IMG/VR virus record: IMGVR_UViG_2657245570_000017
Coordinates: 1 to 36,299 of that record
Direction: 5' to 3' (one strand)
Source of the DNA: a virus
Taxonomy: Duplodnaviria > Heunggongvirae > Uroviricota > Caudoviricetes
Length of the DNA stretch: 36,299 nt
This document shows, in pieces, positions 4,525-35,303 of this stretch (within the stretch, counting starts at the first letter, position 1; each line of letters begins with the position of its first letter). The notes beneath the pieces are model-generated. The model searched no databases. It worked only from the letters and a program-made list of their open reading frames with translations, and had not been told where the DNA came from. A program made the position numbers and the translations under genes.

Positions 4525-4599
4525 TGCACCTCATAAAACGGGTGCCGGGTTTCGCAGCCTGCTGACTAGCAAAGCGCACAACCGCGCCAGCGGTTTTTT
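4525..4599 (+). ncRNA. Candidate small structured RNA (about 75 nt)
   Basis: Between the promoter-like motif and a hairpin plus T7 run (stem 4580-4593, T-run 4593-4599); no RBS-led ORF in this interval. Confidence 0.3.
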
Positions 4600-4779
4600 T
4601 GTGCGTACTGTATTGCCACGTCTTTTTCGCACACGAATTATGGCGGGGCGTACGGGGCCGACTTCGGTCGGGCCGGGTTCTTTGCTAGCCGGTACTGCGA
4701 ACCTCGTACGTCTCGCCACCCACAGTTTCGCAGCTCTGGATGGTGAGTTTTCAAAACTTACTAGCAAAGAGGCCACACC

Positions 4780-33559: not shown

Positions 33560-33750
33560 CAGGCAGAATTGCCGGAGTAACAAAAAAGCGATAGATTACG
33601 CGCGGGTGCCTTTCGGCTGATGGTCGGAGGGAATACCCGAAGGCCAGATGTGGAAAGGCCCCGGAAAACATTTCTGTTTAACCGAGGCCCTAACATATCT
33701 ACCTTAAGCAAGTGATAGGTTAGCGCCTCTCCAACAAAGGAGCAAGCGCT

Positions 33751-33891
33751 ATGTCGCAAAAATCGCTTACGGCCATCACGTTCTGCGTGACGGTAATCCT
33801 CATCATCTGGATGCTGCACGGTTCGCTGTGTGAAATACGGATGAGCTTCTGGGGAGCGGAGTTTGCGGCGTTCTTACAGTGTAAGCAGTAA
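33751..33891 (+). CDS. Hok/Gef-family type I toxin (46 aa)
   Basis: AAGGAG RBS; hydrophobic helix ITFCVTVILIIWML followed by the family signature SLCEIR and AEFAAF (compare Hok KSLCEIR...EVAAF as recalled). Confidence 0.7.
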   Translation: MSQKSLTAITFCVTVILIIWMLHGSLCEIRMSFWGAEFAAFLQCKQ

Positions 33892-33978
33892 GGAAACCGC
33901 GACGGGGGAGCAATCCCCCGTCAATCGGTTGCTAAGGTTGGCTGAAGTGGCACCCTATCTCTCAGACATGAACAACAA

Positions 33979-34011
33979 ACCCGCAGCGTAAAAACTGCGG
34001 GTTTTCTTTTT
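33979..34011 (+). terminator. Rho-independent terminator of the hok-like transcript
   Basis: ACCCGCAG-CGTAAAAA-CTGCGGGT followed by TTTCTTTTT. Confidence 0.7.
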
Positions 34012-34054
34012 GCTACCCTCACAAATGAGGGCACCATACATAAGCAATAGGCAT

Positions 34055-34100
34055 AACAGATCGATGCAATAAATCCGATCGATAAAAACGATCGATTTGT
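34055..34100. promoter_or_regulatory. Cluster of three GATC (Dam) sites upstream of com-like gene
   Basis: GATC at 34059, 34077 and 34090, each within CGATCGAT-like context. Confidence 0.5.
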
Positions 34101-34140
34101 TATCATATCGGCAGCAGTAACCACACAAGAGGTGCCGCAA

Positions 34141-35074: not shown

Positions 35075-35078
35075 GACA

Positions 35079-35100
35079 AAGCCCGCAATGTTGCGGGCTT
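35079..35100 (+). terminator. Hairpin after the methyltransferase (weak terminator)
   Basis: AAGCCCGCA-ATGT-TGCGGGCTT, 9-bp stem; poor T-run. Confidence 0.45.
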
Positions 35101-35118
35101 ACTCTACCTCTCGAAAAT

Positions 35119-35136
35119 GTGGTCACTGCGTGGACA
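35119..35136. repeat. Putative attR core
   Basis: GTGGTCACTGCGTGGACA, direct repeat of 11-28; phage-type genes end to its left and a host gene starts to its right. Confidence 0.5.
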
Positions 35137-35303
35137 TACGCTGATACAAATCCTTTTATATCAAGAAATTAAATCTTTGTTTTTTTCATCAACAAGGATT
35201 TTCACGTTTGTGTTACCTGTATGAGACGAGAGTTAACCGGACAAGTGTGCCATAATCTCGCGGCCAGGCATACTTGCGAAGATTTCAGGTATAAGGATAC
35301 GTA

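What the first reader, a model, noticed from the sequence alone, without database searches (positions are those of the whole stretch)
33560..34011. Hok/Gef-family type I toxin locus carried between ogr and the com/methylase module
Seen: a 46-aa ORF with good RBS, an N-terminal transmembrane helix and the SLCEIR...AEFAAF signature of Hok/Gef/SrnB/PndA toxins, a GC-rich terminator hairpin, and about 190 nt of upstream leader with a long-range inverted repeat (GCCTTTCGG...CCGAAGGC). Established: hok-family mRNAs have long structured leaders and are controlled by a short antisense Sok-like RNA. Inference: post-segregational killing or abortive-infection cargo; the antisense RNA and mok-like frame were not located with confidence.
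Basis: partly seen in the sequence, partly recalled or inferred. Interest (0 to 1): 0.6.

Follow-up and report, generated by a model that had tools for sequence, protein, structure and literature searches.

The report
Known prophage hok/sok toxin–antitoxin module
This is a real but already catalogued hok/sok-type toxin–antisense RNA cassette at the end of a P2-like (P88-type) E. coli prophage; its one unusual feature is that it lacks the "mok" leader frame that the textbook plasmid R1 system needs to translate the toxin.

Summary
Window 33751-33891 (+) encodes a 46-aa Hok/Gef toxin (Pfam PF01848, 30.1 bits against a cut-off of 22). It sits in a ~407-nt mRNA (33604 to ~34010) with the R1-type RNA layout:
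- a 5'/3' tac/fbi closure, with compensatory changes among homologs;
- ucb, GAGG and dcb boxes;
- a protective 3' stem-loop and a terminator.

I located the Sok-like antisense gene on the minus strand (about 33711 to 33652). Its -35/17 nt/-10 layout is kept in 14 of 14 homologs.

The locus is not new. It is 99.6% identical to phage P88 gp52, and RefSeq annotates it "Hok/Gef family protein". It occurs in 1,637 of 5,426 complete E. coli genomes. The exact peptide is listed in a 2025-26 Hok survey, which reports toxicity for a variant differing by one residue.

One point is not described in the papers I could search. This 46-aa subfamily has no mok frame, yet the hok Shine-Dalgarno is predicted to be paired in every mRNA state I modelled. 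How Hok is translated from the native mRNA is therefore open.

The biological role (prophage addiction, phage exclusion or lysis help) was not tested. Verdict: correct call, ordinary finding, low interest.

The parts
33569..33597 (+). Predicted hok promoter: -35 TTGCCG (33569-74), 17-nt spacer, -10 TAGATT (33592-97).
   Evidence: Read. The -10 TAGATT/TAGAAT sits 6 nt before GGGTGCC and is conserved in homologs. The geometry matches R1 (TATGAT, T at -7; PMC9841398). It matches only 8 of 12 consensus positions, so the generic scan did not flag it.
33604..34010 (+). Predicted full-length hok mRNA, about 407 nt (R1: 398 nt).
   Evidence: MFE -174 kcal/mol, z = -6.58. The 5' end is inferred from promoter geometry and the invariant GGGUGCC. 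The 3' end is inferred from the terminator.
33604..33616 (+). tac element (5' end, GGGUGCCUUUCGG).
   Evidence: Pairs with fbi in the full-length MFE of all 14 homologs. Its alternative partners are ucb (repeat I5) and a local hairpin with 33621-33638 in the truncated fold, which resembles R1's metastable hairpin.
33656..33664 (+). ucb box (AGGCCCCGG).
   Evidence: Pairs with 33682-89 in the closed form, with one compensatory GC to AU pair in 4 sequences. Pairs with tac in the open form, 96% of cells paired.
33682..33689 (+). GAGG box (CCGAGGCC), homologous to the mok Shine-Dalgarno of R1 and hokC. No start codon follows it here.
   Evidence: Alignment with R1-type hok and K-12 hokC. The position 7 nt downstream is AUA (33695-97), followed by 6 codons and then UGA. 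It is not conserved in homologs.
33684..33729 (+). Sok-target hairpin of the open form: GAGGC:GCCUC plus CUAACAUAUC:GAUAGGUUAG, with loop 33700-33713.
   Evidence: 84.5% of cells paired across 14 loci and 3 pairs with compensatory change; slid controls give 33-57%. The open form is the MFE or within 4.8 kcal/mol of it once the 3' end is removed.
33722..33750 (+). Hairpin that sequesters the hok SD: AGCGC:GCGCU and anti-SD CUCC (33729-32):GGAG (33739-42). The SD AAGGAG is at 33737-42.
   Evidence: helices 4 and 5. The predicted unpaired probability of the SD is 0.00-0.08 in 13 of 14 loci, in every state modelled.
33751..33891 (+). hok coding sequence: 46-aa Hok/Gef toxin.
   Evidence: Pfam PF01848 at 30.1 bits, above 22. 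PHROG 251 at E = 2.5e-23. dN/dS is 0.12-0.39 against 7 homologs. RefSeq WP_000078920.1 is named 'Hok/Gef family protein'.
33856..33871 (+). Coding-region segment (GCGGAGUUUGCGGCGU) that pairs with the hok start region 33751-33766.
   Evidence: 14-pair helix, 99.5% paired in 14 loci (helix 6). Repeat I1.
33895..33930 (+). Stem-loop after the stop codon. Predicted 3' end structure of the processed (truncated) mRNA.
   Evidence: 5 of 9 inner pairs show compensatory changes (helices 7 and 8). Its R1 counterpart protects the truncated mRNA from exonucleases (PMC9841398).
33943..33955 (+). fbi element (UGAAGUGGCACCC). It pairs with tac and locks the full-length mRNA closed.
   Evidence: 7-bp perfect repeat I11. 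The three extension pairs (alignment columns 10-12 with 359-361) are all compensatory in 4-5 of 14 sequences. Forcing the open form costs 2-17.6 kcal/mol only while fbi is present.
33977..34012 (+). Intrinsic terminator of the hok mRNA.
   Evidence: 10-bp stem followed by TTTTCTTTTT. In homologs the position holds terminators of different sequence.
33717..33745 (-). Predicted Sok-like promoter: -35 TTGCTC (33745 to 33740), 17-nt spacer, -10 TAACCT (33722 to 33717).
   Evidence: Same position relative to the dcb box as R1's promoter hexamers, which I recalled from memory. -35 TTGCTC/TTGCCT/TTTACT, exactly 17 nt, and -10 TAACCT/TATCCT occur in 14 of 14 loci. It matches only 6 of 12 consensus positions and was not flagged by the scan.
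33652..33711 (-). Predicted Sok-like antisense RNA, about 55-60 nt. It has a single-stranded 5' tail complementary to the target-hairpin loop, then the stem-loop GGCCUCGG...CCGGGGCC followed by UUU.
   Evidence: Folds at -22.1 kcal/mol, z = -3.5. Collinear with the annotated sokC of K-12 and with the Rfam sok model hit. The ends have not been mapped experimentally.

Best explanation
This is a hok/sok-type type I toxin-antitoxin cassette, about 440 bp (33569-34012). It is carried as an accessory gene (moron) next to the right attachment end of a P88-like (Xuanwuvirus, P2-like) prophage of E. coli.

Mechanism, with each step's basis:
1. A moderate promoter makes a ~407-nt hok mRNA. Its 5' end (tac) pairs with a 3' element (fbi). 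In this closed form ucb pairs with the GAGG box, and the hok SD and start codon are buried. The structure is supported here by covariation and energy calculations; its function is inferred from R1.
2. Slow 3' trimming back to the stem-loop at 33895-33930 removes fbi. tac then pairs with ucb, and the GAGG box pairs with dcb to form the target hairpin. The calculations show the two forms become nearly isoenergetic. The processing itself is inferred.
3. A short, unstable Sok-like RNA is transcribed from the opposite strand (about 33711 to 33652). Its 5' tail binds the target-hairpin loop, and RNase III destroys the duplex. This step is inferred from R1 and from hokW-sokW.
4. When transcription of the cassette stops, Sok decays first. 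The cause could be prophage loss, host shut-off by a superinfecting phage, or prophage induction. The 46-aa Hok is then made, inserts into the inner membrane and kills the cell. Toxicity is reported in a preprint for a peptide differing by one residue.

Unlike R1, there is no mok leader frame. Hok must therefore start directly from its own AAGGAG-8 nt-AUG site, and how the SD hairpin is opened is unknown.

The most likely role is selfish stabilisation of the prophage. Phage exclusion or earlier lysis could be side effects.
For: Protein:
- Pfam HOK_GEF is above threshold, and PHROG 251 'MokW-like host killing' matches at E = 2.5e-23.
- There is a transmembrane helix.
- dN/dS is 0.12-0.39.
- The exact peptide (id 1628) is in cluster 72 of the Hok survey. 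Its representatives 72_1621 (one residue different) and 72_1589 were cloned, and neither is among the three non-toxic constructs.

RNA:
- The Rfam sok model hits at E = 1.5e-9.
- In the closed structure 95.2% of cells are paired, against 31-47% in slid controls. Nine pairs carry compensatory changes, and 0 of 500 shuffles reach the covariation score.
- tac/fbi forms in the MFE of all 14 homologs. The open form costs +2 to +17.6 kcal/mol at full length but only 0 to +4.8 after 3' truncation.

Antisense: promoter layout conserved in 14 of 14 loci. Stable terminator stem-loop. Collinear with the annotated sokC.

Modularity: Stx-phage relatives match only window 33583-33955, from just upstream of the -10 box to fbi. 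The same cassette follows ogr in Salmonella P2-like prophages, lies next to lom in Stx phages, sits on plasmids, and occurs in tandem pairs.
Against: - No transcript ends, processing, RNase III dependence or toxicity were measured for this locus.
- Both promoters match the sigma-70 consensus weakly (8 of 12 and 6 of 12), and the scan did not report them.
- The Rfam hit is below the gathering score (47.9 against 59).
- The mok frame, which R1 needs for Hok synthesis (PMC9841398), is absent.
- The hok SD is predicted to be paired in all modelled states, so native expression of Hok is not demonstrated.
- The open-form helices are conserved but show little covariation.
Confidence: 0.8

Rival explanations
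1. Lysis or release helper. As for hokW-sokW of Stx2 prophage Sp5, induction of the prophage depletes the Sok-like RNA. Hok then permeabilises the inner membrane ahead of holin and endolysin, which increases or speeds up phage release. This uses the same molecular mechanism but gives a different selective benefit.
For: Takada et al. 2021 (PMC8621323) showed that mitomycin C removes sokW RNA in a RecA-dependent way. HokW then appears about 1 h before the endolysin, and deleting the locus halves released phage. The cassette here is phage-borne, and a close relative lies in Stx phages.
Against: HokW is a different Hok (51 aa, hokC-like leader), not this 46-aa subfamily. The same cassette also occurs on plasmids and at chromosomal sites without phage genes, where a lysis role makes no sense. 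Nothing was tested here.
Confidence: 0.3
2. Abortive-infection or phage-exclusion cargo. A superinfecting lytic phage shuts off host transcription, the Sok-like RNA decays, and Hok kills the cell before the invader completes its cycle. This protects sister lysogens.
For: It follows from the differential-stability logic of hok/sok. From my own memory (not checked in the library), R1 hok/sok was reported to partly exclude T4. The locus lies beside other moron-like cargo (com and a methylase) at the prophage end.
Against: No PADLOC defence model matches the protein. [quoted passage not shown] Nothing was tested here.
Confidence: 0.25
3. Translationally silent relic. Loss of the mok start codon left a cassette that is still transcribed and folded but makes essentially no Hok. 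It persists by hitch-hiking with the prophage.
For: In R1, mutations of the mok start codon abolish Hok synthesis. Here no uORF reaches the hok SD, and the SD is predicted to be paired in every state. Truncated 25-29-aa 'partial' Hok entries exist among relatives.
Against: The 46-aa frame is intact in all loci sampled down to 61% identity, with dN/dS 0.12-0.39. All RNA elements and the antisense promoter are conserved with compensatory changes, which is not expected for a dead locus. The cassette has spread to several kinds of replicon.
Confidence: 0.12

Closest known systems
hok/mok/sok (parB) of plasmid R1
   Same: Hok/Gef toxin with the LCE motif. The promoter-to-+1 geometry matches. It shares the tac/fbi 5'-3' closure, the ucb, GAGG and dcb boxes, a target hairpin, a protective 3' stem-loop, a cis-antisense RNA whose -10 box abuts the dcb box, and a full-length mRNA of about 400 nt (PMC9841398).
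   Different: No mok reading frame: R1 has an ATG at -57 from the hok start and a 70-codon frame, and there is none here. The toxin is 46 aa rather than 52, with only 39% identity over 31 residues. The first 5' hairpin differs. The Rfam sok model scores 47.9 bits here against 87.2 for an R1-type locus. It is carried by a prophage, not a plasmid.
Cluster 72 of the Hok survey (Escalera-Maurer et al., bioRxiv 10.1101/2025.08.07.668861) = RefSeq WP_000078920.1 = phage P88 gp52
   Same: The same gene. The exact peptide is their id 1628. The DNA is 99.6-100% identical to phage P88 and to E. coli GF66.2. Cluster representatives are reported as toxic.
   Different: None at the protein level. That study did not analyse mok, Sok or mRNA structure, which is what this report adds.
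hokW-sokW of Stx2 prophage Sp5 (E. coli O157 Sakai)
   Same: A prophage-borne hok/sok type I system, shown experimentally to depend on RNase III and Hfq (PMC8621323).
   Different: HokW is 51 aa (its gene begins ATGAAGCAGCAAAAG) with a hokC-like leader, so it belongs to a different Hok cluster. The Stx-phage relative of the present locus is a separate 46-aa gene next to lom.
Chromosomal hokA and hokC (gef) of E. coli K-12
   Same: HokA is the best-scoring named NCBIfam model (E = 6e-9). hokC has the same GGGUGC 5' end and the same CCCCG and CGAGGC boxes.
   Different: The score is far below the HokA equivalog cut-off (35.8 against 89). hokC carries an annotated mokC and sokC. The K-12 copies are disrupted by IS elements, whereas this locus is intact.

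Membership tests
Hok/Gef toxin family (Pfam PF01848) | Profile match at or above the curated gathering score | tested here: met
   30.1 bits against a cut-off of 22, residues 7-44 on profile positions 5-42 of 42. PHROG 251 at E = 2.5e-23.
Hok/Gef toxin family (Pfam PF01848) | Peptide of about 50 aa with one N-terminal hydrophobic helix and the conserved L-C-E motif | tested here: met
   46 aa. Residues 6-22 have a Kyte-Doolittle mean of 2.58. L26-C27-E28 is invariant or nearly invariant in 28 relatives. It corresponds to L30/C31/E32 of the survey logo.
Hok/Gef toxin family (Pfam PF01848) | Kills or arrests cells when expressed | not testable with these tools
   The preprint reports that 42 of 45 constructs were toxic. 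The three non-toxic ones do not include 72_1621 (one residue different from this peptide) or 72_1589.
HokA (NCBIfam NF007290 equivalog) / Hok subfamily NF007279 | Score at or above the curated cut-off | tested here: not met
   35.8 bits against 89 for HokA, and 23.6 against 73 for the Hok subfamily model. The protein is not HokA. It belongs to a separate 46-aa subfamily.
hok/sok RNA family (Rfam RF01794) | Covariance-model score at or above the gathering score | tested here: not met
   47.9 bits against 59, E = 1.5e-9, full model 1-157. All 14 scored copies from 11 related loci of the 46-aa subfamily score 36.5-57.2 bits. The controls pass: K-12 hokC at 118.3 and an R1-type locus at 87.2. This is a significant but divergent relative.
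R1-type hok mRNA regulation | 5'/3' tac/fbi pairing that closes the full-length mRNA | tested here: met
   7 bp are perfect and 3 further pairs are all compensatory. The pairing is present in the MFE of 14 of 14 homologs.
R1-type hok mRNA regulation | Switch to tac/ucb plus a target hairpin after 3' truncation | tested here: inconclusive
   The energy calculations fit. The open form costs +2 to +17.6 kcal/mol at full length and 0 to +4.8 after truncation. The helices are 88% paired. Covariation is weak, and processing itself was not observed.
R1-type hok mRNA regulation | Cis-encoded Sok antisense RNA with its own promoter | tested here: inconclusive
   The -35/17/-10 layout is conserved in 14 of 14 loci and the terminator stem-loop is stable. 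The promoter matches only 6 of 12 consensus positions, the scan did not report it, and no transcript data are available.
R1-type hok mRNA regulation | [quoted passage not shown] | tested here: not met
   No ORF with an ATG, GTG, TTG or near-cognate start reaches within 20 nt of the hok ATG in the window, L002 or L006. None is conserved among the 14 loci. The R1 and hokC controls have an ATG at -57.

The most novel reading that the evidence does not exclude
The 46-aa Hok subfamily (survey cluster 72) is a naturally mok-less hok/sok lineage. It is present in about 30% of complete E. coli genomes, and also in Salmonella, Citrobacter and Klebsiella.

If the locus is functional, the Sok-like RNA must control Hok without blocking a leader peptide. 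It could act through RNase III-mediated decay alone, or through a structural, standby or 5'-processing route that opens the sequestered hok SD. That would be a second regulatory solution inside the paradigm type I toxin-antitoxin family.
Probability: 0.4. Interest if true: 0.45.

Novelty: already known. Interest (0 to 1): 0.22.

Why it matters
As a gene call it adds nothing. The locus is annotated in RefSeq and in the phage P88 reference genome. It is found in roughly a third of complete E. coli genomes, and the peptide is listed in a recent Hok survey that reports toxicity for a near-identical variant.

What may be useful is the RNA-level map made here: both promoters, the tac, ucb, dcb and fbi elements, the processed 3' stem-loop and the Sok-like gene.

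This widespread, prophage-borne subfamily keeps every R1-type RNA element yet has no mok frame. In R1, mok translation is indispensable for making Hok. The subfamily is therefore a natural test case for how much of the textbook hok/mok/sok mechanism is general.

Tried and rejected
1. Search for a mok frame. I translated all three frames. I then scanned the leaders of 14 homologs for uORFs, allowing near-cognate starts. No conserved frame was found. The 31-codon ATG ORF at 33620-33715 lacks an SD, ends 22 nt before the hok SD, and is broken in close relatives, so I rejected it as mok.
Base-pair probabilities do not support this. The mean unpaired probability of the SD is 0.03 at full length, 0.07 truncated and 0.02 truncated with the Sok site blocked.
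3. The generic promoter scan found neither the hok nor the Sok-like promoter. Both rest on homology and conservation only.
4. An alternative Sok promoter inside the hok ORF (TTGCGA at 33760 to 33755) has no -10 box at a suitable distance. Rejected by eye.
5. At gathering threshold Rfam found only C4 and isrK elsewhere in the window. The sok hit appears only in E-value mode.
6. The species-representative genome scan gave only 7 loci. Three are in implausible hosts (Planococcaceae MAG, Vagococcus, Xanthomonas pisi) and are probably contaminating enterobacterial contigs.
7. PADLOC gave no match.
8. Literature searches for a described mok-less hok lineage found nothing in the held library. This does not prove that none exists.

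Full report
**What is in the sequence**

Window 33751-33891 (+) is a 46-codon ORF, MSQKSLTAITFCVTVILIIWMLHGSLCEIRMSFWGAEFAAFLQCKQ. AAGGAG lies 8 nt upstream of its ATG.
- It passes the Pfam Hok/Gef model: 30.1 bits against a gathering score of 22.
- It matches PHROG 251 'MokW-like host killing' at E = 2.5e-23.
- It has one strongly hydrophobic N-terminal segment: residues 6-22, Kyte-Doolittle mean 2.58, against 2.66 for R1 Hok.
- It does not reach NCBI's HokA or Hok-subfamily cut-offs: 35.8 against 89, and 23.6 against 73.

The next gene is the host gene flk, so the cassette sits about 1.3 kb from the right end of the prophage.

**Whose DNA this is**

The first 25 kb of the window is 94-95% identical, over 76-86% of its length, to Xuanwuvirus (P2-like, Peduoviridae) phages such as P88, PhiR44_2 and Shae_phiSM.

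The 481-bp locus is well known in the databases:
- It is 99.6% identical to phage P88, where the ORF is gp52, 'MokW-like host killing / hok/gef family protein'.
- It is 100% identical to E. coli GF66.2, where RefSeq names it WP_000078920.1 'Hok/Gef family protein'.
- At least 80% of the locus is present in 1,637 of 5,426 complete E. coli genomes, and on a few plasmids.

Relatives in Stx phages match only window 33583-33955. That span runs from just upstream of the -10 box to the fbi element, so it marks the cassette as a mobile unit.

Protein relatives form a tight 46-aa subfamily in Escherichia, Shigella, Salmonella, Citrobacter and Klebsiella, down to 61% identity. They occur in several settings:
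- after ogr in Salmonella P2-like prophages;
- next to lom in Stx phages;
- near a relaxase gene, probably on a plasmid;
- as tandem pairs.

**RNA anatomy**

In E-value mode, the Rfam sok model (RF01794) aligns end to end with 33604-33761 (+) at 47.9 bits, E = 1.5e-9. This is below the gathering score of 59. All 14 scored copies from 11 related loci of this subfamily fall at 36.5-57.2 bits, whereas K-12 hokC (118.3) and an R1-type locus (87.2) pass.

I aligned the window with 13 homologous loci and with R1-type hok and hokC. This gave the following map:
- hok promoter: -35 TTGCCG 33569-74 and -10 TAGATT 33592-97.
- Predicted +1 at 33604. The geometry matches R1's TATGAT box, whose last T is at -7.
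- tac: 33604-16.
- ucb: 33656-64.
- GAGG box: 33682-89.
- Target hairpin: 33684-33729, with loop 33700-13.
- dcb/anti-SD and the SD hairpin: 33722-50.
- hok: 33751-33891.
- Stem-loop after the stop codon: 33895-33930.
- fbi: 33943-55.
- Terminator: 33977-34012.

**Is the structure real?**

The full-length RNA folds at -174 kcal/mol, z = -6.6.

On the 14-sequence alignment, the closed structure gives these results:
- 95.2% of cells are paired, against 31-47% when the partners are slid by 1-3 columns.
- Nine pairs carry compensatory changes.
- 0 of 500 shuffles reach the covariation score.
- All three pairs that extend the tac/fbi helix are compensatory (CG/UA, GC/CG, AU/GC).
- Five of the nine pairs in the stem after the stop codon are compensatory.

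In all 14 homologs, the MFE of the full-length RNA pairs nucleotide 1 with the last C of fbi. Forcing the 'open' form (tac/ucb plus the target hairpin) costs +2 to +17.6 kcal/mol at full length. It costs only 0 to +4.8 after the 3' end is trimmed back to the stem-loop, and in 5 loci the open form then becomes the MFE.

This is the behaviour described for R1 hok mRNA (PMC9841398). The open-form helices themselves are conserved (88% paired) but nearly invariant, so covariation neither adds to nor detracts from them.

**The antisense gene**

On the minus strand, -35 TTGCTC (33745 to 33740), a 17-nt spacer and -10 TAACCT (33722 to 33717) occupy the same position relative to the dcb box as the Sok promoter hexamers of R1. 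I recalled the R1 hexamers from memory; no fetched paper gave them.

All 14 loci keep TTGCTC/TTGCCT/TTTACT, then exactly 17 nt, then TAACCT/TATCCT. The predicted RNA runs from about 33711 to 33652. It has a largely single-stranded 5' tail complementary to the target-hairpin loop, then a 10-bp stem-loop and UUU (-22.1 kcal/mol, z = -3.5). It is collinear with the annotated sokC of K-12.

Caveat: the two promoters match only 8 of 12 and 6 of 12 consensus positions, and the generic scan reported neither. The antisense gene is therefore inferred, not shown.

**The missing mok**

In R1 and hokC, an ATG lies 7 nt after the GAGG box, 57 nt before the hok ATG. It opens the mok frame. In R1, mutations of that start codon abolish Hok synthesis.

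In the window the homologous triplet is AUA (33695-97). It is followed by six codons and then UGA, and other members have CAU, CGU, CUU and so on. No ORF with an ATG, GTG, TTG or near-cognate start reaches within 20 nt of the hok ATG in the window, the Stx-phage copy or the Salmonella copy. The sporadic uORFs in other copies share neither position nor frame.

The hok frame is nevertheless intact and under purifying selection, with dN/dS 0.12-0.39.

I tested one idea: that the conformational switch acts directly on the hok SD, because dcb doubles as an anti-SD. Base-pair probabilities do not support it. The GGAG is predicted to be paired in the full-length, truncated and Sok-blocked truncated states alike, with mean unpaired probabilities of 0.03, 0.07 and 0.02. 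How Hok is translated from the native mRNA is therefore unexplained.

**What is already published**

The bioRxiv survey by Escalera-Maurer et al. (10.1101/2025.08.07.668861):
- lists this exact peptide as id 1628, in cluster 72;
- cloned two cluster-72 representatives, one of which differs from the window peptide by a single residue;
- reports that only three other constructs among 45 were non-toxic;
- states explicitly that Mok, Sok and mRNA structure were not analysed.

Takada et al. (PMC8621323) showed that a different prophage hok, hokW-sokW of Sp5, is a working type I system dependent on RNase III and Hfq, and that it speeds lysis and doubles phage release after induction.

I found no paper in the held library describing a mok-less hok lineage.

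**Verdict**

The locus is an intact, conserved hok/sok-type cassette that works, as far as sequence and structure can show, like the R1 paradigm. The exception is the absent mok frame.

It is already annotated, extremely common and catalogued, so its novelty as a finding is nil. The biological role (prophage addiction, phage exclusion or lysis help) cannot be decided here. The only point that might repay bench work is how translation proceeds without mok.

Noticed in passing
window 4526-4723 (+): Two Rfam hits above the gathering score lie side by side: isrK (4526-4600, 65.5 bits) and C4 antisense RNA (4636-4723, 82.8 bits). This is a P1/P7-type c4 immunity RNA module inside a P2-like prophage.
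   Followed up: no
window 34059-34096 (+): Three GATCGAT motifs (GATC at 34059, 34077 and 34090) lie within 38 bp. They overlap the palindrome CGATCGATAAAAACGATCG and the only promoter-like site the scan found (TCGATA-16-TATCAT, 34079-34106), just upstream of com and the methylase. From memory, this resembles the Dam/OxyR-controlled mom promoter of phage Mu.
   Followed up: partly
window 35075-35303: The prophage right end must lie in this 229-bp gap between the methylase gene and the host gene flk. The gap starts with a hairpin, AAAGCCCGCAATGTTGCGGGCTT. The att core was not identified.
   Followed up: no
L019 1354-2206 and L020 1355-2206: Two Salmonella contigs carry tandem pairs of complete 46-aa hok cassettes about 490 bp apart, each with its own tac, fbi and terminator.
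   Followed up: partly
L014 1301-1500: One Salmonella copy, beside lambdoid tail-fibre genes, keeps ucb, the target hairpin, hok and fbi. It lacks the GGGTGCC tac element and the -10 box, because its 5' end has been replaced. It may be deregulated or dead.
   Followed up: no
L004, L005, L008: Hok cassettes 74-100% identical to the E. coli protein turn up in assemblies labelled Planococcaceae MAG, Vagococcus sp. and Xanthomonas pisi. These are most likely contaminating enterobacterial contigs.
   Followed up: no
L009 1809-1995 and L012 1795-1992 (-): In two Salmonella loci (L012 a P2-like prophage) the hok cassette is followed directly by the sRNA gene STnc540 (172-186 bits). In L012 the Pfam families of the next genes suggest ihfA-pheT. 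This hints at the integration site.
   Followed up: no
protein hits P0049-P0068: Many database entries are 25-29-aa 'partial' Hok/Gef proteins, 79-100% identical to the C-terminal half. This suggests frequent truncation or pseudogenisation of this cassette in E. coli and Salmonella.
   Followed up: no
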